Source of the DNA: a virus | Taxonomy: Duplodnaviria; Caudoviricetes | DNA: 64,000 nt | Reading direction: 5' to 3' (one strand) | Virus record (IMG/VR): IMGVR_UViG_2859564202_000001 | Shown: in pieces, positions 15,179 through 25,196 of the stretch | Layout of the letters: every line of letters begins with the position of its first letter | Position numbering within the stretch: the first letter of the stretch is position 1 | The notes under the pieces: generated by a model | The model's database searches: none | What the model was told of the DNA's origin: nothing | What the model saw: the letters and a program-made list of their open reading frames with translations, nothing else | Program-made: the position numbers and the translations under genes

Positions 15179-15558
15179 ATGTCTAAAAATACAAATATTT
15201 CGCCATTGCTCTCCTAGCACCCATCCTCGGCTTAGTCGCTGCAGGTTGCTCCACTACAGCTGAAGAGCCAGCTGCAACTCAGGTAGAAGAAACAACAGTC
15301 GCCCGAGTTGAACACGATACTTACGACACTATTGCTAACCAGCTACAAGATGCCGGTGTCTATGACGATGTGGCCTTTGCCGAAGGCTACTACCAGGAAA
15401 TGGCTGAGGTTGTATGTGAAGCACGCGAAGAGGGTATCACCCACGAGGACACCCTGCATATGCTCAATGACATGATGGCAATGAAACGATCTGGCGAAGT
15501 ACTCAATACGCTCGCTGATGTTCTCTATGCAAATGAATGCCCTGAATATCGAATCTAA
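15179..15558 (+). pseudogene. Small lipoprotein gene frameshifted in an A5 run (15185-15189)
   Basis: AAAGGA RBS and ATG 15179. Adding one A gives MSKKYKYFAIALLAPILGLVAAG|C (lipobox), in frame with ORF 15370-15558. Confidence 0.7.
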
Positions 15559-15597
15559 ATTGTTGGTTCACTCTGCATAGACACAACACCACACAAC

Positions 15598-15641
15598 AAA
15601 AAACAACCCCCTAAGGATAATCCTCAGGGGGTTGTTCTGTT
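15598..15641. terminator. Bidirectional terminator downstream of the IntN-bearing exon
   Basis: aacaaccccct...agggggttgtt hairpin with A/T tails. Confidence 0.8.
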
Positions 15642-15649
15642 TCGACTCA

Positions 15650-15969
15650 TTATGCTGCGCTTGCTGCATCCTGCTCGGCAGGAACCACAATCACTTCCCA
15701 CAAATGCTCATCACAAGCCTCTGTGGTTGAGCCATCTTTACGTGTCACAGTAAATACATCTCGCTCACCCTGTGGGAACACACCGTCAATCTCGCTGACT
15801 GTCCCCTTTGGGGTAAGCACCTTCATACCTGCTTCTGCTTCGCCCATCGTGACCCATCCATCAGGTGTTGCGATCTTCGCCGTCAACGGCTGCGCATTAC
15901 CTTGGAGAATCTTGTCTGAGGCTTCGCCATACACCTGAGTCAACTGCTGCAGTGTCTGCAGAATCAATG
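15650..15969 (-). CDS. VirD4-like gene exon 3: end of N-extein (TLILQTLQQLTQVYGEASDKILQGN) plus IntN
   Basis: In frame with exon 2 after removing the group II intron (A+CA = Thr); T4CP motif Q...QL...YG. Confidence 0.85.
15653..15895 (-). mobile_element. N-terminal half of a split class 3 intein (81 aa)
   Basis: Block A AQPLTAKIATPDGW starts with Ala; block B TEACDEHLWEV contains Trp. Confidence 0.85.
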
Positions 15970-18033
15970 ATGTCAATAGGTAACGCTTTGATCTTATCTC
16001 CACGTTTTCCCCTGACCCACACCGTACGTGCGACTTTCACCGCATACGGCGCTCCATCACTAGAGTTCTTATCCCTCCGGTGACTTGTGACCATTACTCC
16101 TGCTCTCATTACAAGAGCTATCAACGCTTCGATCACTACTTTTCAACACTCGTTCGACTGCTTATTATTCTTCGTCAGTCTACGCAAAACCGCTATCCAA
16201 AAACTTCTTCCTGAAACGGACCACTTACTAATAACTCGCCAATTGATTCTGCTGTTCTCGCCGTATATGGGATCTCCAAAAGTGTTAGCTCTCGGACTAC
16301 AGTAAACGCTCGTTTTCGTCTGTCGTGCTCTTGTTGGATCGCGAAACGACTCTCTCCACCGAAATACTCAACTGGTCTAAAATGCTGCTCACCTTGGCAC
16401 TCAATCAACAACCAGGGCTCGGTATCCTTGAAAACCAAAAAATCATAACTCAGTGGTCCTCCACCAACCCCCACCAAACCATCGAAAGTCTTTTGAGATT
16501 CAAACTGAAAATCATTCTTTAAAAGAAAGTCCCTGACATGTGACTCTTGGATTGATCCGTGCAAACAACCACACGATTGGCTAATACCCTGCCTCAACAT
16601 AATCCCAGCAACAGCATTTTCGGAGCCGCACATACATCGGCACAACCACATTTGAGACCGCCCACCACCAGGGTAAAACCTGTCATCCGTACGAGACAGC
16701 ACAGTCCACTGGTTAAATACCTTGCCAGTCAAATCTTCAAAAACAGCAGTTTCTCGTCGCTGTTCTATGCGATAGCACCCGCACGATATTGACCGACCCC
16801 GCAACAAAGACTGTTCCAATACGTCCCTTGTCGCTCCACACTCGCACTCGCAAAACCACGCCTTAGATAAGCGACCCCACTGCAGCACGTCCTCACCACG
16901 TCGAACAACAGACCATCGACCAAATGTGGAACCAACTAAATCCCTATTCTTTGAAAGCGACTCGATTTTTAGACAACCACACGATTTCGAATCACCATTC
17001 TTCAGTGACCCCGCAGCAAGATCTTTCTCAACACCGCAAGTACATCTGCAATGCCACATGGTGGTTTTCCTTCCTGTGGAGGAAACCCTACTTTCCGCTC
17101 GATCTATGACAGTCCATCGCCCAAACACCTGACCTATGAGATCCTGTAAGTTCTTACCCTGCATCCTTTTACGAACAGTCTCATAACGACGACAACCGCA
17201 CGATGCGGTTTCATCAGCGTTCTTAAATCTAGAGGCCGGTGCATCATACTCCCTGCCACAATCACAAAGACATTGATACCGAACCTCAATCTTGCCACTT
17301 TTGTTTACACGATCGTTAGTGCGATAAAGAACTTTTATATGCCCGAAAGTTTTACCGGATAAATCATTAAACTTTCGTCGCCGATGTTGTTGCGGTGCTC
17401 GTATTGTCATCTCAAACTACTTTCAAATATATACCTTTATTTGTATATATTACCCCTTTTAATTAATTAAACAAGCTTTCAGCCTTGATAACAAGTGGTC
17501 CATTTCACTATAAAGTTATTAAATATTGGCAGCTATTTCACGCCGAATATCTTTCCCAGTTCCGTTTCACCTATCCGTTACATGCTGCCCTTAGGTGCTC
17601 ACTCTGACCCTGCTCGCCTCGGATGTGCCTGTAACACATCAGGGAGGTTCATAAATTCAAGTCTTACTTGTCCCCTACGAGCACTAACGCATTTCTACGC
17701 CGAACAATTCAAGAGCCGTACATTCGCAAGTTCGTCAGTTATCTCACTCGATAACATTCTCACCCTAGGCAGTTTCTGGACACCCGGCATATCAGCGGCA
17801 CATCAGATCACTCTGACGCTTTCGTAGCTACTGTGATCAAATCCCAGCACCTTTACGACCGACCTTCTGCCGACTCTAACGGGCTTTATACAGTTCTATT
17901 TTGTTCAAACCGCATACCGTAGCTTGGTGTGCACATTTCAGGGCGTTACTCCGTCATTCTGTGTATCAATGAAACAGTTTCTTGCAACTTTAAGCTGCAA
18001 GAGCGTAGTTTTTCGCTACGCAACTGGTCGCAC
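15970..18033 (-). mobile_element. Group II intron (2064 nt) with a non-RT ORF
   Basis: 5' GTGCG at 18033. Domain V GAGCGCCGTATGCGGTGAAAGTCGCACGTACGGTGTG (about 16054-16018, CGC triad), a domain VI stem, and 3' AT at 15970. Removal restores GQEQQF-T-LILQTLQQL. Confidence 0.92.
16193..17410 (-). CDS. Group II intron-encoded putative homing endonuclease (four CxC/SCGC repeats plus a Vsr/DUF559-like nuclease)
   Basis: Four DLxGxxFGxWxV...CxCxCG...SCGC repeats; YDFLV...LIECQGEQH...HDRRK; no RT (YADD) motif. Confidence 0.82.
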   Translation of the reverse strand: MTIRAPQQHRRRKFNDLSGKTFGHIKVLYRTNDRVNKSGKIEVRYQCLCDCGREYDAPASRFKNADETASCGCRRYETVRKRMQGKNLQDLIGQVFGRWTVIDRAESRVSSTGRKTTMWHCRCTCGVEKDLAAGSLKNGDSKSCGCLKIESLSKNRDLVGSTFGRWSVVRRGEDVLQWGRLSKAWFCECECGATRDVLEQSLLRGRSISCGCYRIEQRRETAVFEDLTGKVFNQWTVLSRTDDRFYPGGGRSQMWLCRCMCGSENAVAGIMLRQGISQSCGCLHGSIQESHVRDFLLKNDFQFESQKTFDGLVGVGGGPLSYDFLVFKDTEPWLLIECQGEQHFRPVEYFGGESRFAIQQEHDRRKRAFTVVRELTLLEIPYTARTAESIGELLVSGPFQEEVFG

Positions 18034-19690
18034 TAAATTGTTGTTCTTGTCCCAGACCGATCGAGAGCATGGTTTCAAATCCCGCAATACCATGACCCTC
18101 ACTCTGAAGGTTTCCCAACTCGTCCAACATGAAACGAGTCTTATAATCCGGCTTCTGATTCTCACGCGTCATATACGAGGAATCGAAGTTCAGATCCACA
18201 AGCTGTTTGATGAGAATCAAAATCAACTTCGCATATTTCATAAGATGCGGAGGCGTTACGAAGAACACTGCCTTAGGCTTCTCCGAATACCGCACATTCA
18301 GAGCCGACACCGCATCAACCATCGCATCAACCTGCTTGATCATGTCATGACCCGGCATATTGATCTGTTCCTGCGTGAGTTGGTCAAGATTCAGTTTCTT
18401 CGTCTTAAACTGCACATGACCTGGAACAAAGTCACCAGCATCGTTTTTCACCAGCTCGATCAGCAGACCATTCTTAATGATCTTCTCATCGGTCACCGGA
18501 TCAGTAATAAACGCACGGCCTTTAAGGTTCGTTTGGTAGCCCTTGGTGAACTTGAAGTACAGAGTCTTGATCAACGTGCCAGAAGTACCATTGAGAATCC
18601 GCAAACGCAGGTACGCAGTATTACTCGGGAACGAGTCTTTAATATAGAACCGCGCCCAACCCTCAACCGACAGCGTGTCATCATGAACAAAATTCTTACC
18701 CAACGGCTTGGTGAACTTGGCGTCACTATACGCATCCCATTTCACCTGTGATCCAACCAGGTTGTAGCGCTTCACATAGGGGGCCGCAAAACGAACACCC
18801 ATGCGCCGTGGAAACGACAATCCGGCCAAGTCAACGTTCTGACTTAGTGTGCCTGAGGTTAACGTTGAAATTGTGGGGTCTGTAAAGAAGGACATCGCTG
18901 TAATCGCGATACCGTAGACCGACGCCATCATTTTTTCAGCGCCACCCATTGCTTTCAGGGCCTTATCTGCGTTGCCCACCAGAGTACGAACACTGGACTT
19001 TGGCAGACCGTCTGTGGCACTAAAGAACAAGGTGAGCATGTCTTTTTCTTTCTCACCCTCCCACAGAAACATTTCGTTCTCTTCGGCCTCTGTCACAGCA
19101 TCCTGGAACATCATGGCTGCATTTTCATCAGTCTCTAAGTTACCGAATTCACCGGCACGTGCACGTTCATTGAGTCGCTCAACGGGATTCTTCAGCTTCT
19201 TTGCCGAAAGCTGCACAAAGAGCTGGTAGCAGTTGTAGAGCGTGACCTTACCCCACATCTGATCAATACGTGTATCAAGCACCTTGGCATCCCAATTCTC
19301 AGCTGCAGCCTGCTTGCGCATCTCGCGCTCCTCTTCCAAATAGAAGTCGATAAGACCATAGGCTGCACGCTTGAAGGCATTGTTGGCCGCATTCGGCCAT
19401 ACCGGATCATCGGCACCGTCCACCGGAAAGAACACCTCTGCGATATTTTCCACATAGGTTGCGCACTTCATCCCGTTACCTTCGCGAGCTGCTTCGGCTG
19501 CTAATCCCAACGGGTTATAAATATCAGTTTTCAGGTTGTTAATCAGGTTAAACTGAACAACCTGAAAACCGCGCTTAGACATCCGAACATAATTTTTCTT
19601 CAGCAACTCGCCTTTAGGGTCGTTGATACACATATTGTTCGGTCGAGTTTCCCTCGTCCACATGTCGATCATTGGCTCAATGTAGGTCTG
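18034..19690 (-). CDS. VirD4-like gene exon 2 (P-loop continuation through Walker B)
   Basis: QTYIEPMIDMW, INDPKGEL, YNPL and RFMLDELGNL are T4CP motifs. Confidence 0.88.
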
Positions 19691-21355
19691 ACATGATCTT
19701 CAGGACTGTTCGCAACACAATCCTCGGGGGCGAACCCCTGCTCACGCTTTCACGTGAGATGAGATTATATGTTCATCTTAAGTGCTTAATAACTTAATAA
19801 GTTTGTCGAGAATCCCAATCAATTGAATCTAAACAACCACCATCAAACCACGCTCGCGCATCACTTAATCGAGGATGTCTTCCCTCACCATCAATAGAAC
19901 TGCTGCCATCCCAAAAAACCAAATAATTCAACTTATTGATTCTTGCGGCCTCGCGCTTAGCCACATCAGTTTCGGTCCAGACACGAATGAAACTCCTATA
20001 TCTAGATTGACCGCCAAACTCCGATTCAAGTTCATCTGCTCTACCCATCCAAAATCTAACAAGACTCTGGTCACGCTCGTCAGATGAATCAAACCAGTGG
20101 TCATTATGACTACGATCCCCATTCAATTCGATGAACATATCTCGGGATTTGATGTAGTAGTCAACATGAAAAGGATAACGATCATCCACAACCACATTTC
20201 GAAGTACATCGTCCATGCCAAAACGATTTTGAAGCAAAACTTCTAAGGCGTCCTCTGGTTTTGAATCATTTAATGTACCGTTCAATCTGCGAGCTTCGAA
20301 AATCTTCTCCCGAATTTCAGGTACCAAAACACTATCCGGCGCACCATAAAGCGATGTCATAGTTTCTTGTCTAGACTTTCGAACTTTTTCCGCAACTTCT
20401 GGGATTTGAGTCGGATAATCAACACCATGGCGATCATTCATCGTAGCCCTAAGGGTATTTTGCATTCTCAATAATATGTCTGGATCTTGATTCGGGTGCT
20501 CTACTCCATAACGTTCAACCAACGTGGCTGTTCTTTTCTCCCGCCCACGCTCAACAGCAACCTCATTGACAAACCGATCAAAGGTCGATTTATCAAAAAC
20601 GTTATCGACTCCGTAGCGCTCCCTGACTGTAGCAATCTGCTTCAACTTCCAACACTCATCTCGCAAAACTCTATAGCGGGACTCACCCAGAATCGACCTG
20701 AATACCTTTGCGTAATCCCCGAATCCACAATCTAACGCCATAATTTTCTTCGATCTTCCAGCTTGGTATAGATCATCAAATTCACAACTCATCTCCCTAT
20801 AGGCAGCTTCTACTTCATCATGGTTAAATCGTTTCTCAATAAAACTAATCTGATAATTTTGCACATCAGCTTTACTAAACCGAGTGCCCTTAACCAAATT
20901 CTGTTTCAATACCGATTGAATAGATAATCCGGTATGAGTTTTGATGTAGTCACCAGGGAAACCACGGAGGTACAAATCTGTTGCCTGTTGAAGAATTGTC
21001 ATAAAAATATTCTACTAAATTAATGACATTACTATCGACAAACCTATTAAGTTATCAAACAACATAAGAGTTAGATTTTTCTTCTGCCATGAGCTTGCAG
21101 TTCTACTCCCCCACAAGGGGATAATCGTTGAACCTACCGCATGGTGTCACGCACTGTAGCGGTGTGGCTGCTAAAGACCCATTGTTACGTGATCTCTTAG
21201 GATTTAACCTTAAGACCATCTCTTCTTTTCTTTCCGCTTTCGCAACCATATCGGTATGAGTTTTCACTCTGCCGTTTCGGTAAGAAGAGCTTTAGGGATT
21301 CAAAGCAATTAACCTAAAAGTATGCGCTTGTCACCAAACGCACAGGGCCTTAGTT
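19691..21355 (-). mobile_element. Group I intron (about 1665 nt) in the Walker A codons, ORF in the P8 region; exact 3' splice site ambiguous
   Basis: P1 AGGGU/GCCCU with a U.G wobble at 21356. P3 UUAGGUU/AAUCUAA. P7 A(C)GAUUA (21128-21122) pairs with UAAUCU (19767-19762). P9-like hairpins precede exon 2. Removal restores TRAGKG-QTYIEP. Confidence 0.88.
19794..21002 (-). CDS. Group I intron-encoded putative homing endonuclease (EDxHD/Vsr-like)
   Basis: (E/D)R(Y/H)GV(D/E) repeats; VDYYIKSRDMFIELNGDRSH nuclease motif; TAGAAT-N6-ATG suggests a leaderless promoter. Confidence 0.8.
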   Translation of the reverse strand: MTILQQATDLYLRGFPGDYIKTHTGLSIQSVLKQNLVKGTRFSKADVQNYQISFIEKRFNHDEVEAAYREMSCEFDDLYQAGRSKKIMALDCGFGDYAKVFRSILGESRYRVLRDECWKLKQIATVRERYGVDNVFDKSTFDRFVNEVAVERGREKRTATLVERYGVEHPNQDPDILLRMQNTLRATMNDRHGVDYPTQIPEVAEKVRKSRQETMTSLYGAPDSVLVPEIREKIFEARRLNGTLNDSKPEDALEVLLQNRFGMDDVLRNVVVDDRYPFHVDYYIKSRDMFIELNGDRSHNDHWFDSSDERDQSLVRFWMGRADELESEFGGQSRYRSFIRVWTETDVAKREAARINKLNYLVFWDGSSSIDGEGRHPRLSDARAWFDGGCLDSIDWDSRQTY

Positions 21356-22597
21356 ACCCTTACCTGCACGAGTCATAGCCAACACCAGCGTATTCACCGG
21401 AGCTTCATCAACCACATAAGCACCAGCTGGTCGCTGCGGCTCATAATCGGGAAACTCCCAATCCTCATTGATGTGCTGCGCGACAGTATCTTGCTTACCA
21501 GTCTTGTCACGATTACTACCACCAGGATTCCACTCAATCTTTGCTGGATTAAAGAACCGTCGCAGCTCGGGAAGATTCGGGACATCTGATTTGTCAAAAA
21601 TCGCATGGCTAAATTCGTTGTCAATCATCGGCAAGCTCTTTGTGATCGGTTGTCCTGCACCGTCATAGAGCACTTCACCCTTTTCAGAGACAATTTCACC
21701 AGTGTCATTGTCGATAATTGTCTCCTGTGCAAACTGCGTTACATCCACCTTTTTCAAGCCCTTATTCGACAGCATCACATGGGAAATCATGCTTGAGGGC
21801 TGGACTGGTGAGTGTGCACCGACATCGGGGAACAGACTCAAATCGCGCACAATCTCCTGCGGAATCGCCAAACGTGCGTCATTGGTGTGCTGGTTAATAT
21901 CGGTGGTGTCCACAGCGACGTTTTGTGTTTCTAGCTGACGCATCATTGCTGCGCGTGACATCGCATACACACCCGCTGCAACCGCAATCACAAACGTCAC
22001 CCGAATAATGCCCACATGACCAAATAACAGCCAGCTACCCACCGAATTATCAATAGGTTCTGGTGCATCAAAGCCATGTTCTGCGAACACACTAGCTACA
22101 TAATCGGCGTACCACACTGGCTCTTTAGGCACGCTACGCGTACAGTCGCCAAAATTATTGCCAAATTCATCAAGCGGTTGGTAGCACGTGGTGTGAGCAC
22201 TACTGGTGCCGATTTGCTGTTCGACAGCAACATAATAGGGTCTCACACCAAGCTCATCAAAAAGCTCTTTGTCATTAGGTGAGCCAGTATTCATCATGGT
22301 CTGGATCAGCAGCCCGATACCGCCCCAGGCCAGCCACATCACAACCAGGACAAACACGCCCAGAATCGCAGCACCCACCTCAACCCACATCGGTGAGCGC
22401 ATTTCTCCGATTTCACCGCGTGCCAGTTGCTGCTCATTGTGTACGTCACGGTTGCGGGCTTTATCCGTCACCCGCTGTTTTCGCAGCTGATCAAAGGTCC
22501 GATCAGTCTGCTTTAGATCTTTGGTGCCACCACCTTTGAAGGCTTTGCCACCAGACACATTGTCATAATCGCGTTTACTTGAACCGAATAATGCCAT
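21356..22597 (-). CDS. VirD4-like gene exon 1 (two TM segments up to Walker A, NTLVLAMTRAGKG)
   Basis: ATG 22597 with GAAAGG RBS; two TM helices; ORF stops immediately after GKG. Confidence 0.88.
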
Positions 22598-22700
22598 TGC
22601 CCTTACCTTTCTGTTGTTTTTTCTATACAAATGCCCGCCACACAATCACTTATGTGGCGGGCATCAACCCAATCGCCTATACAGCCCGCGCAACGATCTT

Positions 22701-25196
22701 TTAGAAGAAGGCTGCGCCAGCGACCATGCCGGCAATCAGCCCCACAATGAGGACGGCAATCAAAATGATGTTGTTGCTGCGATCCTGCTGCTTGACTGAC
22801 TCAACAAACGTCATGGAGTTCGCCTCTGCTTGGGTGGCTCGATCGCGCTCAATAACAATCTCCGCCTCATGCGCCTCATTATTTACACGAATTTGCTCTT
22901 CCATGCGCTTGAGCGCCGCCTCAGCATCAAGACGTGCTGTGGTAATTTCCCGCTCAGCACGTTCCTCCGATGCAGCGACAATAGTGTCGCGACGCTTAAG
23001 CTCTGCTGCGAATTCCGCTTCCTGACGCTCAAGTGCCTTGCGCTGGGAGGCGATCATCTTATCGGTCTCGACGCGGATACCCTCGATGCGCTCTTCGGCT
23101 TCCTTGGTCAACTGTGCCACACGATTATCTGCAGCAAGCTTCTGCTCATTCACCGATGCCAAACGCAGGTCATCTTCGCGGTGATCAGCAATAAACTTGT
23201 CAAGATCAACAATGAAACCATCGAAAGCTGCTCGTTGCAGTTCTGCCTGGCGCTCCACAATCGGGCGCAATTCGTCAATAATGCGAGATTCTGCAGCGTT
23301 AGCCCGTTCACCAGCACGTGCACGACGCAGCGTGTTCATGCGTGCGGTGTAATCCTCAATGGTGCGATCCCGCAGGCTCGTCAGCTCTCGACCTACCGCT
23401 TCTAGTGATGCGGTATGGCGAGGCATATGACGGCGATCATACTCCACGCGCTGCTCCGCGATCTTTGCCATGACATATTCTTCACGGTTCGCCTCATACT
23501 CCTGCTGCAATTGCTGACGACGCTCTGACTCCACACGCTGTTGATCACCAGCCATAACATCGCGGTCACGCTCAATGGCACGGTAAACCTCGTAGAATTC
23601 GGAATCCTTATTATCCAGTCCAAGATCACGAGCGATCTCAAGATTAGAGCGATCATTAAGCGCAATGTACATCGCGCGCACTTCTTCGTAGTCACGCTGA
23701 TGCTGATCAAGCAGCTGACCATTAAACACAGCCACCAATGTACGAAGCTGATCACCTAACCACGGTGTAGTCTCCTGGAATTGCGGCATCGCCACCTGGA
23801 ACGGTGCCCTGGTCAAAGCATTATTGAAGTTTGCCTCATCGACATACAGCCCCAAGTCGTCATTAACATAACGTTTGGTGACAGCATCACCCACTTGATC
23901 GGCATCAAAGCTGCGGGCATCAGCTGCGTGCACCTGTGCCAATGCTGCCTGTGAATCCTGAACCGGATTGTAAGCCAGTGCTTGTGCAAGTTCTTCTCGC
24001 AAAGCATTAAGTTCTGAACCAGTCTTTGCTTGCACGGACTCAGACACACCACGAATCAGCGCCTGGATCTGCTCATCGGACATGCCGGCTACAGGTGCCG
24101 GTGCAGCAACAACATCGGATGCACCAAAATCTGGTTCATCATCACTGCCGAAAGGATCGTCTTCTGCTACATCACCAAAAGGATCTGCATCAGCTGTTGC
24201 TTCGACAACCTCCTCATCCTCTGGCTCAGTAACCTCGGCATCGTCAATACCAAATCCATCACTGAAATCCGGTACATCCACCTGTTCTGCTAGTGCGACA
24301 TCATCAGGGCTCTCAATAACCACTGTGTCATGGGACTCCTGTGCATCAACATCCACTACGTCTGCGCTGTGAAGCACCGGCTGTGGTGCCACATGATGCT
24401 TGCCCTGCAACTTGGTGAACACATGCACAATATTGTCAATGATCTCTGCACTGCTCGGATAGGAATCCACATCAAGCTTCTCGCGAATGAGGTCATCCGT
24501 GATAACTCCCGCTGCATTGACACCCTCAAGACCATAAGGCACGTCGCCATCTTCGTCATCAATATCCACCTCAGAGGTCTCATTCAGCACCTCTAGGAAG
24601 GTGGCAATGACCTCAAAATCAACCACGTCTTCGAGGTCAGCAGCACCGCTAAGCACATCGCCGACCTCGGAAAAAATGTCACCGCGTGCCGAAGCGCTAT
24701 TTTTCGCGGGCACCTTAAACACCACCAGCTCACCCGTGTCAGGTTCAATTGCAGCCACTCCGTAGTGCCAGCGTGCTTTGTTACGCAGTAAATCAAACTC
24801 ATCCATGCGATCGAAAGAATCTGCATCAGGAATGACACCAAGCACATCGCTGTCAAGAAGTTCTGGAGTGACAACGGAATGAATATCATCGTTGACCACC
24901 AGGTTGATGATCGTGCCTTTATCCTCGCGGTTCTTTTCCTTAGCGTTGAGCCCACCGAATTGTGAATCGTGAGTTGGCAACAGCATGACTACCCAACCGG
25001 TCTCACCTGGCAAAGCGAATGCGTCATTGCGACGCATGACCTCGACTGCAGCACCTGGTTCGGTTTCCTGAATGACTGAGGCGAGTCGTTCTTCTTTGCG
25101 CAGTGGCTTTACTGCTGCATCGCCAGAAACAGCCCCCTCCCCCACTCCATGAGAACCTTTCGCTTTGGTGAAGCGATTTTTCAATGAATCGAGCAT
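22701..25196 (-). CDS. Hypothetical acidic/coiled-coil protein with a C-terminal membrane anchor
   Basis: 831 aa ORF with a long E/R/Q helical region and a hydrophobic C-terminus. Confidence 0.75.
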   Translation of the reverse strand: MLDSLKNRFTKAKGSHGVGEGAVSGDAAVKPLRKEERLASVIQETEPGAAVEVMRRNDAFALPGETGWVVMLLPTHDSQFGGLNAKEKNREDKGTIINLVVNDDIHSVVTPELLDSDVLGVIPDADSFDRMDEFDLLRNKARWHYGVAAIEPDTGELVVFKVPAKNSASARGDIFSEVGDVLSGAADLEDVVDFEVIATFLEVLNETSEVDIDDEDGDVPYGLEGVNAAGVITDDLIREKLDVDSYPSSAEIIDNIVHVFTKLQGKHHVAPQPVLHSADVVDVDAQESHDTVVIESPDDVALAEQVDVPDFSDGFGIDDAEVTEPEDEEVVEATADADPFGDVAEDDPFGSDDEPDFGASDVVAAPAPVAGMSDEQIQALIRGVSESVQAKTGSELNALREELAQALAYNPVQDSQAALAQVHAADARSFDADQVGDAVTKRYVNDDLGLYVDEANFNNALTRAPFQVAMPQFQETTPWLGDQLRTLVAVFNGQLLDQHQRDYEEVRAMYIALNDRSNLEIARDLGLDNKDSEFYEVYRAIERDRDVMAGDQQRVESERRQQLQQEYEANREEYVMAKIAEQRVEYDRRHMPRHTASLEAVGRELTSLRDRTIEDYTARMNTLRRARAGERANAAESRIIDELRPIVERQAELQRAAFDGFIVDLDKFIADHREDDLRLASVNEQKLAADNRVAQLTKEAEERIEGIRVETDKMIASQRKALERQEAEFAAELKRRDTIVAASEERAEREITTARLDAEAALKRMEEQIRVNNEAHEAEIVIERDRATQAEANSMTFVESVKQQDRSNNIILIAVLIVGLIAGMVAGAAFF

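What the first reader, a model, noticed from the sequence alone, without database searches (positions are those of the whole stretch)
19685..21360. Group I intron whose canonical splice sites do not give the expected frame
Seen: P1 places the 5' site after the U of GGU (21356, U.G wobble). The likely terminal G (...GAUCAUG, 19692) is followed by an extra U before CAG ACC UAC. Using both canonical sites gives GGU UCA GAC CUA CAU UGA, a frameshift and stop. Three options are in frame: (a) intron 21355-19691 ending in U; (b) intron 21356-19692 with the 5' cut after G; (c) terminal G at 19688, which drops the Gln and shortens the usual GK-x6-P spacing. P7 shows a compensatory change (GAUUA/UAAUC rather than GACUA/UAGUC), which suggests the ribozyme is maintained. 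Inference: non-canonical splice-site chemistry or alternative 3' sites that limit protein output.
Basis: partly seen in the sequence, partly recalled or inferred. Interest (0 to 1): 0.7.

Follow-up and report, generated by a model that had tools for sequence, protein, structure and literature searches.

The report
Group I intron that splices after G
A self-splicing group I intron splits a conjugation motor gene, and its one-nucleotide frame problem goes away if, like a published class of related ribozymes, it cuts its 5' end after a G, one base before the usual U-G pair.

Summary
On the minus strand a VirD4/TraG coupling-protein gene is interrupted inside its Walker A codons (GKG|QT) by a 1665-nt group I intron carrying a 402-aa endonuclease ORF in P8. 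Joining the textbook sites (after U21356 and after G19692) leaves one extra U and a stop.

The extra nucleotide is not an error or decay.
- Two independent RNA-library assemblies carry the same base.
- About 20 diverged introns of this family sit at the same site and all read AAG GG-N1 ... G-N2-CAR. The G is invariant, N2 is U, C, A or G, and exon 2 is intact.
- In two relatives (L025, L026) no in-frame join puts a U at the 5' cut.
- An Enterococcus phage tail-tube intron and a Silviavirus IStron of the same ribozyme lineage show the same offset.
- Twort orf142 introns serve as canonical controls.

Tourasse et al. 2014 (PMC4227781) showed experimentally that group B IStron ribozymes, which share this intron's core, splice after a G, with the U as first intron base.

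Option (c) is refuted. This is a new member of a known kind. This scan met the same offset before on other DNA. Splicing in this host was not observed.

The parts
21357..22597 (-). Exon 1 of the VirD4/TraG-type coupling-protein gene. It runs from ATG 22597 (a GAGG motif lies a few bases upstream) and ends ...ACU CGU GCA GGU AAG GG at G21357.
   Evidence: Translation. The exon tiles against the intronless Gordonia pGKT2 allele. Homologues read ...TRAGKGQTYIEP.
19692..21356 (-). Group I intron, 1665 nt. The first base is U21356 and the last base is omega-G19692.
   Evidence: Core homology to phage group I introns and IStrons. Family comparison. Published splice rule for the homologous ribozyme class (PMC4227781).
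21344..21360 (-). P1 and internal guide. Exon AGGG (21360-21357) pairs with CCCU (21347-21344). U21356 (first intron base) pairs with G21348. The L1 loop AACUAAG is 21355-21349.
   Evidence: Sequence and centroid fold. The same layout is seen in about 20 family members and in CbISt4 and the Silviavirus IStron.
21322..21343 (-). P2 hairpin: 21343-21335 pairs with 21330-21322 around a GUGA loop.
   Evidence: The helix covaries across the family alignment.
21196..21212 (-). A 17-nt core motif, TAAGGTTAAATCCTAAG. It is identical in the window, the phage relatives and CbISt4. The T4CP-site relatives have close variants of it.
21121..21126 (-). P7 5' strand GAUUAU. G21126 belongs to the putative guanosine-binding G-C pair.
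   Evidence: There are five compensated P7 versions in the family, while the G-C and A-U pairs never vary.
19794..21002 (-). Intron ORF of 402 aa (P0001), a putative homing endonuclease, lying in the loop of P8.
   Evidence: Pfam DUF7487 at E 2.3e-10. PHROG homing-endonuclease families phrog_3339 and phrog_12131. Orthologues of 41-53% identity occupy the same position in the related introns.
19763..19768 (-). P7 3' strand AUAAUC, followed by J7/9 UCAU (19762-19759).
19702..19758 (-). 3' peripheral helices. P9 is 19758-19741 with loop UGAAAG. P9.1 is 19738-19727. P9.2 is 19724-19702 with loop GUUGCG.
   Evidence: The helices are conserved with compensations in the family and in the phiEF17H intron, and the P9.2-plus-tail region aligns with Twort I2/I3.
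19692..19701 (-). 3' tail GAAGAUCAUG. A19694-U19693 form P9.0 with A19760-U19759. G19692 is omega-G.
   Evidence: P9.0 covaries across the family: AU/AU, AA/UU, GU/AC, AC/GU. The tail aligns with the tails of Twort I2/I3.
18034..19691 (-). Exon 2. It starts with U19691, the third base of the Gly codon, then CAG ACC UAC AUU GAG... (QTYIEPMIDMW...). I did not place its downstream end myself; 18034 is taken from an earlier first-reader note on the group II intron that follows.
   Evidence: Pfam T4SS-DNA_transf. 73% identity to full-length actinobacterial coupling proteins. The downstream end comes from note e1-5753882 and is unchecked.

Best explanation
The intron belongs to a lineage of subgroup IA2 group I ribozymes that place the 5' splice site one base pair upstream of the usual U-G pair. 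The same lineage forms the published group B (IS607-type) IStrons. The 5' exon ends with G21357, which pairs with C21347. U21356 is the first intron base and pairs with G21348 at the edge of a 7-nt loop. The 3' end is ordinary: a 2-bp P9.0, then omega-G19692. U19691 is therefore the first base of exon 2 and the third base of the Gly codon. Splicing gives ...GGU AAG GG|U CAG ACC..., which restores TRAGKGQTYIEP. After the first step, the first base of exon 2 probably takes the place of U21356 opposite G21348 (P10), so that the guide sequence pairs continuously across the ligated junction. The 402-aa ORF in P8 is presumably the homing endonuclease that keeps the intron at this Walker A site. What is shown: the anatomy, its conservation, the frame logic and the homology. 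What is inferred: the chemistry in this particular intron, taken from the published BcISt1 experiment, and the P10 exchange.
For: 1. Sequence. Window exon 1 up to 21357 and exon 2 from 19691 tile exactly on the intronless Gordonia pGKT2 allele GGT AAG GGT CAG ACC.
2. Conservation. About 20 diverged introns of the family at the same site read AAG GG-N1...G-N2-CAR. The base before N2 is G in 19 of 21. N2 is U, C, A or G, all giving Gly. In the close trio L020/L021/L027, N2 changes together with neighbouring synonymous sites while the intron tail is identical.
3. L025/L026. Here the Lys codon is AAA, so the P1 GGG is the whole Gly codon. These loci read AAA GGG|U...UUUG|CAA with no N2. No in-frame join puts a U at the 5' cut, and the only join that also ends the intron in G cuts after the third G. 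The guide UUGCCC is perfectly complementary to the junction GGG|CAA. The exon 2 stretches compared differ only synonymously.
4. N2 pairs with the guide base opposite N1 in 19 of 20 loci, using U-G, C-G, A-U, U-A and G-U. N1 pairs with it in 17 of 20 (L014 values).
5. Other host genes show the same offset. phiEF17H tail tube reads CAG|U...CUG|UUC ACA. The intronless EFGrNG reads CAG TTC ACG...(QFTYLTSAKVK), and every exon 2 difference is synonymous in that frame. The Silviavirus tail lysin IStron reads UGGGG|U...ACGG|U GAU.
6. Controls. Twort orf142 I1-I3 are in frame with U(-1) and omega-G.
7. Literature. Group B IStrons insert after AGGG, TGGG or GAGG. Their U is the first intron base and the U-G pair is shifted by one bp. 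For BcISt1 this was shown by RT-PCR of ligated exons and of circular-intron junctions (PMC4227781).
8. Homology to those IStrons.
Against: No spliced RNA of this locus was seen. The two raw-read RNA runs had no reads on the stretch, and the contigs hold only the unspliced form. The published experiment concerns BcISt1, a distant relative that I did not compare directly, and not this intron. This intron lacks two group B IStron traits: the 3' end is AUG rather than CGG, and there is no transposase and no long AU-rich stem. Where N1 equals N2, as here, the mature mRNA is the same whether the cut falls before or after the U, so the choice rests on relatives. The ORF-less clade L010/L144 has A, not G, at the position before N2 and does not fit cleanly. 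A G-C pair at the cleavage site conflicts with what is established for other group I ribozymes, where the U-G wobble is treated as completely conserved (PMC11835236).
Confidence: 0.8

Rival explanations
1. The 5' cut is canonical, after U21356 of the U-G pair, and the intron ends one base later at U19691. The terminal nucleotide would then be a non-G base preceded by G.
For: It keeps the U-G wobble at the cleavage site in the 14 of 20 family members where N1 is U. It gives the same mature mRNA as the best explanation in this window.
Against: It needs a last intron base that varies (U, C, A, G) after an invariant G, with nothing for the guanosine-binding G-C pair of P7 to hold. That pair is invariant. 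It fails in L025/L026, where a cut after the U cannot give an in-frame product. Six members have A, not U, at N1. BcISt1 circle junctions place the U inside the intron.
Confidence: 0.05
2. Both textbook sites are used and the mRNA is frameshifted (GGU UCA GAC CUA CAU UGA). The gene would then be inactive here, or full-length protein would arise only from rare mis-splicing or ribosomal frameshifting, which would throttle expression.
For: In this genome the gene carries three intervening elements, and no spliced RNA was seen. Only one of the 41 genomes searched, the one holding the window's DNA, carries the element.
Against: The same arrangement is kept in about 20 diverged elements with intact exon 2 and synonymous-only divergence. 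It also occurs in a phage tail-tube gene, where a throttle makes little sense. The three contexts share no slippery sequence: GGU U CAG, CAG U UUC and GGU U GAU.
Confidence: 0.07
3. The 3' splice site is the G of CAG at 19688, which drops the Gln.
For: It is in frame and uses a U and a G.
Against: Gln follows GKG in all 94 homologues in which the motif was found. Most family members have CAA at that codon, so no G is available. The covarying P9.0 places omega-G at 19692.
Confidence: 0.01
4. U19691 is a sequencing or assembly error, or a recent 1-nt insertion in a decaying pseudogene.
For: None beyond the frame problem itself.
Against: Contigs from two independent RNA libraries agree with the window base for base. 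The held genome G001 matches the intron at 100%. The extra base is present in diverged relatives.
Confidence: 0.01

Closest known systems
Group B (IS607-type) IStron ribozymes: BcISt1 of Bacillus cereus, CbISt1-4 of Clostridium botulinum and its phages, SrISt1 (Tourasse, Stabell and Kolsto 2014, PMC4227781)
   Same: Subgroup IA2-type core. The 17-nt motif is shared with CbISt4 of phage D-1873. Insertion follows a GG-ending site (AGGG here). The U is the first intron base and pairs with G directly at a loop. The 5' splice site follows a G, and the intron ends in G.
   Different: This intron has no TnpA/TnpB transposon module and no long AU-rich inverted-repeat stem. Instead it carries an endonuclease ORF in P8. 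Its 3' end is AUG, not CGG. The host is an actinobacterial-type conjugation gene, not a Firmicute or Fusobacterium locus.
Staphylococcus phage Twort orf142 (tail-tube) introns I1-I3. I recall I2 as the crystallised Twort ribozyme.
   Same: The P7, P9, P9.2 and 3' tail architecture is homologous. The tail GUAACAUAAUUG compares with UGAAGAUCAUG here. L1 loops of 7-11 nt are closed by the U-G pair.
   Different: The Twort introns splice canonically after the U of the U-G pair and are in frame that way. The 5' half of the core (P3-P6) differs.
Herelleviridae relatives: the Enterococcus phage phiEF17H tail-tube intron and the Silviavirus (CIFT_MFB_MRSA28/32) tail-lysin IStron
   Same: 68-72% identity over the P3-P8 core. 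Both show the same one-base offset between the U-G pair and the frame-restoring 5' site.
   Different: The host genes differ. The phiEF17H intron has no ORF inside the ribozyme, and the Silviavirus element carries an ISBth15-like TnpB.
EDxHD / Vsr-like homing endonucleases (I-Bth0305I, PMC3239194)
   Same: An intron-borne endonuclease. The C-terminal stretch FIELNGDRSHNDHW resembles the E-D-x-H-D pattern. That paper lists a Corynebacterium glutamicum ATCC 13032 protein as a family member.
   Different: The protein has no sequence match to any solved structure. Pfam reports only DUF7487. Membership is therefore unproven.

Membership tests
Group I intron (Rfam RF00028) | Conserved catalytic core (P3-P8) recognisable by profile or by homology to known members | tested here: met
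   The window gives no RF00028 hit even at E up to 10. However, the core is 68-72% identical to phage introns and aligns with CbISt4, which is annotated as a group I intron. The ORF-less family member L010 matches RF00028 at 36.4 bits, E 4.9e-6, below the gathering score of 50.
Group I intron (Rfam RF00028) | P7 helix with a guanosine-binding G-C pair, supported by covariation | tested here: met
   Five compensated P7 versions occur across the family, and the G-C and adjacent A-U pairs are invariant.
Group I intron (Rfam RF00028) | Terminal guanosine (omega-G) preceded by P9.0 | tested here: met
   G19692. The G is present in 19 of 21 family members, and the 2-bp P9.0 covaries.
Group I intron (Rfam RF00028) | 5' exon ends in U, which forms the U-G wobble at the cleavage site | tested here: not met
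   A U-G pair exists (U21356-G21348), but the reading frame here, in L025/L026 and in the phage genes requires the cut one base earlier, after G.
Group I intron (Rfam RF00028) | Guanosine-dependent self-splicing | not testable with these tools
   RNA contigs show only the unspliced form, and the raw-read runs had no reads on the stretch.
Group B IStron-type ribozyme (Tourasse et al. 2014) | Insertion after a GG-ending site (AGGG, TGGG or GAGG), with U as the first element base | tested here: met
   AAGGG|U at 21361-21356. The rule is stated in PMC4227781.
Group B IStron-type ribozyme (Tourasse et al. 2014) | U-G pair shifted one bp from the splice site and followed directly by a loop | tested here: met
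   GGGU/GCCC closes the 7-nt loop AACUAAG.
Group B IStron-type ribozyme (Tourasse et al. 2014) | Sequence homology of the ribozyme core to named group B IStrons | tested here: met
   Window against phage D-1873 CbISt4: 78% over 68 nt, E 6e-4, with the 17-nt motif shared. Window against the Silviavirus IStron: E 3e-7. The Silviavirus core against a Selenomonas ruminantium plasmid: E 7e-23, and against C. botulinum plasmids: E down to 2e-17. These are species that host named IStrons.
Group B IStron-type ribozyme (Tourasse et al. 2014) | IS607/IS605-type transposase ORFs and a long AU-rich inverted-repeat stem near the 3' end, with the 3' end reading CGG | tested here: not met
   The only ORF is the DUF7487 protein in P8. 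The 3' end is CAUG. This is therefore not an IStron, only the same kind of ribozyme.
EDxHD / Vsr-like homing endonuclease | Vsr-like catalytic domain with the E-D-x-H-D residues | tested here: inconclusive
   Pfam finds DUF7487 only. PHROG homing-endonuclease families match at E 5.8e-7. There is no PDB sequence match. A motif-like stretch can be seen by eye.
VirD4/TraG type IV coupling protein (host gene) | T4SS-DNA_transf domain and a Walker A motif | tested here: met
   PF02534 in exon 2. Full-length homologues of 1000-1700 aa share 62-73% identity. TRAGKGQT is restored by the proposed splice.

The most novel reading that the evidence does not exclude
The habit of splicing after G may not be an IStron oddity. 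It may be the rule of a widespread IA2 ribozyme lineage that also includes endonuclease-bearing introns in conjugative coupling-protein genes and ORF-less introns in Herelleviridae tail-tube genes. Natural variants at this site have A-U (L018, L145, L010) or an A.A mismatch (L020, L021, L027) where the U-G pair normally sits. This suggests that the lineage selects its 5' splice site without any wobble pair, using a G-C pair at the cleavage site and a guide that pairs continuously across the ligated junction. Intron catalogues that require a U before the intron would miss such introns systematically.
Probability: 0.5. Interest if true: 0.6.

Novelty: new member of a known kind. Interest (0 to 1): 0.4.

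Why it matters
The U-G wobble at the 5' splice site is treated as an invariant of group I introns. One recent database discarded 16,427 candidates for lacking the U (PMC11835236). The 2014 IStron paper reported one experimentally supported exception and asked for more work on it. This window and its relatives extend that exception beyond transposon-linked IStrons to homing-endonuclease introns and plain phage introns. They also supply natural 'mutants': the U-G pair replaced by A-U or by a mismatch, and a reading frame shifted by one base relative to P1. These could guide experiments on how this ribozyme lineage measures its cleavage site. For annotation, the practical rule is that such genes must be joined as GG|U, not GGU|; otherwise intact genes are called frameshifted pseudogenes.

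Tried and rejected
- Rfam on the window, at the gathering threshold and at E up to 10, found no group I hit.
- RNA evidence. Raw-read runs X22 and X23 had zero reads on the stretch, so they are no test. Logan contigs X3 and X16 hold only unspliced DNA-like sequence.
- The search for related loci with the endonuclease in genome contigs returned only two distant Lachnospiraceae loci, which I did not follow up.
- Literature searches for 'CGP3 intron', 'group I intron + coupling protein', the Bastillevirinae intron paper, the B. cereus intron survey and the Silviavirus paper gave nothing on the splice-site question.
- The PDB sequence search with the endonuclease found no match.
- I considered and rejected ribosomal +1 frameshifting, because the three host contexts share no slippery motif.
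- I considered and rejected a split protein, because there is no in-frame start before QTYIEP and the Walker A loop would be cut.
- I considered and rejected other upstream U sites, because none restores GKGQT.
- The minimum-free-energy fold of the P1-P2 stretch does not show P1. Only the centroid does, and the z-score is -0.76, so folding energy alone says little.
- The L014 row of my table was mis-parsed.


Full report
**What is there.** The stretch lies in a minus-strand gene for a VirD4/TraG-type coupling protein. Exon 1 (22597-21357) ends ...TRAGKG. Exon 2 begins QTYIEPMIDMW and carries the T4SS-DNA_transf domain. Full-length homologues of 1000-1700 aa come from Gordonia, Rhodococcus, Nocardiopsis, Arthrobacter and many metagenomes. 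The 94 of the 120 listed in which the search pattern was found read TRAGKGQ(T/G)xIEP. About 1665 nt lie between the exons and hold a 402-aa ORF. Pfam calls the ORF DUF7487 and PHROGs call it a homing endonuclease. Further downstream the same gene holds a group II intron (Rfam hits at 17982-17773 and 16054-15970) and ends in an intein-like fragment. Those features are other findings of this scan.

**Is it a group I intron?** Rfam finds nothing in the window, even at E up to 10. Nevertheless, bases 21313-21075 are 68-72% identical to introns of Enterococcus and Staphylococcus Herelleviridae phages, with E down to 6e-20. A 17-nt motif is identical in the window, those phage relatives and CbISt4. 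An ORF-less relative at the same gene position (L010) matches RF00028 at E 4.9e-6, below the gathering score, and the Twort introns score above it. P2, P7, P9, P9.1, P9.2 and a 2-bp P9.0 can be read off the sequence and covary in the family alignment. The ORF sits in the loop of P8.

**The frame problem.** P1 is GGGU/GCCC closing a 7-nt loop, so the textbook 5' site is after U21356. The tail GAAGAUCAUG ends in G19692. Joining the two sites gives GGU UCA GAC CUA CAU UGA. U19691 is not an error. Contigs of two RNA libraries from different studies match the window over 15500-22800 without a difference.

**Comparative test.** Searching with exon 1 showed that many metagenomic homologues have ORFs that stop right after GKG. 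I fetched these and the loci found with the endonuclease alignment. This gave about 20 introns of the same family at the same site.
- All read AAG GG-N1 | intron ... G-N2 | CAR ACN.
- The G before N2 is present in 19 of 21, and a covarying P9.0 precedes it.
- N2 is U, C, A or G, all of which give Gly.
- N1 is U opposite a guide G, A opposite U, or A opposite A (L014 values).
- Exon 2 is open wherever it was read.

The extra base is therefore a conserved trait. Option (c) falls because most members have CAA at that codon.

*Deciding between a cut before or after N1.* L025 and L026 have AAA for Lys, so the GGG of P1 is the whole Gly codon. They read AAA GGG|U...UUUG|CAA with no N2. No in-frame join puts a U at the 5' cut, and the only join that also ends the intron in G cuts after the third G. 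The guide UUGCCC is exactly complementary to the junction GGG|CAA. The exon 2 stretches compared between the two loci differ only at synonymous positions. In addition, N2 pairs with the guide base opposite N1 in 19 of 20 loci, using five pair types. That is what P10 would do if N2 is the first exon base. In the close trio L020/L021/L027, N2 varies like the neighbouring synonymous sites while the intron tail stays fixed.

**Other host genes.** The phiEF17H tail-tube gene reads ...ACG CAG U|...AACUG|UUC ACA UAC. The intronless phage EFGrNG reads CAG TTC ACG TAC... (...STQFTYLTSAKVK), and every exon 2 difference is synonymous in that frame. Using both textbook sites would give a different, unconserved tail. 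The Silviavirus tail-lysin element reads UGGGG U...ACGG U GAU GCG, for LWGDAADW. As controls, Twort orf142 I1, I2 and I3 are in frame with U(-1) and omega-G, and their tails align with the tails here. A different, short group I intron at the same Walker A site (L012) is also canonical, GGU|...G|CAA.

**Literature.** A note from an earlier run of this scan pointed to Tourasse, Stabell and Kolsto 2014, which I read. Group B IStrons insert after AGGG, TGGG or GAGG. The following U is the first base of the element. [quoted passage not shown] For BcISt1, RT-PCR of ligated exons and of circular-intron junctions showed splicing after G.

The Silviavirus element fits that group. It has an ISBth15-like TnpB, a TGGGG target, a CGG end and a long AU-rich stem. 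Its core matches a Selenomonas ruminantium plasmid at E 7e-23 and C. botulinum plasmids at E down to 2e-17, both species that host named IStrons. The window's core matches CbISt4 of phage D-1873 directly (E 6e-4, with the shared 17-nt motif). CbISt4 itself reads GAGG|U...G-CCUC and ends CGG. The field otherwise treats the U as completely conserved (PMC11835236).

**Conclusion.** The intron is 21356..19692. Exon 1 ends at G21357 and exon 2 starts at U19691. This tiles exactly on the intronless Gordonia allele. It is a new member, bearing an endonuclease and not an IStron, of a ribozyme kind whose odd 5' site is already published. This scan has met the same offset on other DNA (e1-2842610, e1-2403855, e1-5768320, e1-5768329).

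**Open points.**
- Splicing in this host was not observed.
- The ORF-less clade L010/L144 has A where omega-G should be, or else gains a second Gln.
- The endonuclease family assignment is unproven.
- The identity of the organism was not established. A paper mentions a Vsr-like endonuclease in Corynebacterium glutamicum ATCC 13032, which is only a lead.

Noticed in passing
window 15970-17982 (-): A group II intron (Rfam RF02004 at 133 bits and RF00029 at 62 bits) with a 405-aa ORF (17410-16193) interrupts the same coupling-protein gene downstream of exon 2. L010 and L144 also carry an RF02004 hit downstream of their group I intron.
   Followed up: partly
window 15653-15967 (-): The third exon ends with about 80 residues (AQPLTAKIATPDGW...DEHLWEV) that match intein-bearing phage proteins in PHROGs, and then a stop. 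It looks like the N-half of a split intein. Some homologues carry a LAGLIDADG intein.
   Followed up: no
P0125-P0244; L019:2660-2900: The Walker A region of this coupling-protein family is a hot spot for insertions. Homologue ORFs break off after PVNTMV, after PVNTI, after GKG and after GKGQTVIE. L019 has a second group I-like intron only 17 nt downstream of the first.
   Followed up: partly
L010:6567-7000, L144, L145: In a clade of the same intron family, L145 keeps an endonuclease ORF while L010 and L144 have none at that position. All three have an extra 3' hairpin. L010/L144 end ...CUGCAA|CAA, so either the terminal base is A or the product gains a second Gln. L145 ends ...CUGGG|CAA. This is unresolved.
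   Followed up: partly
L012:7047-7358: An unrelated 312-nt group I intron sits between the same Gly and Gln codons, with a canonical U-G pair and terminal G (GGU|...AACG|CAA).
   Followed up: partly
L003:2444-2813; L139:4459-6310: An Enterococcus phage tail-tube gene and a Silviavirus tail-lysin gene carry elements of this ribozyme lineage, and both need the cut after G. In GenBank the exons are annotated as separate or truncated genes.
   Followed up: yes
L147:4332-4401: There is a RAGATH-18 RNA hit (61.7 bits) near the 3' end of the phage D-1873 IStron. I guess it is the TnpB guide-RNA scaffold.
   Followed up: no
window 15500-22800; runs X22, X23: Two 2026 RNA-seq runs with the same species label have no reads at all on this stretch, while 18 older runs hold it fully. 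Some laboratory strains of the species apparently lack the whole element.
   Followed up: no
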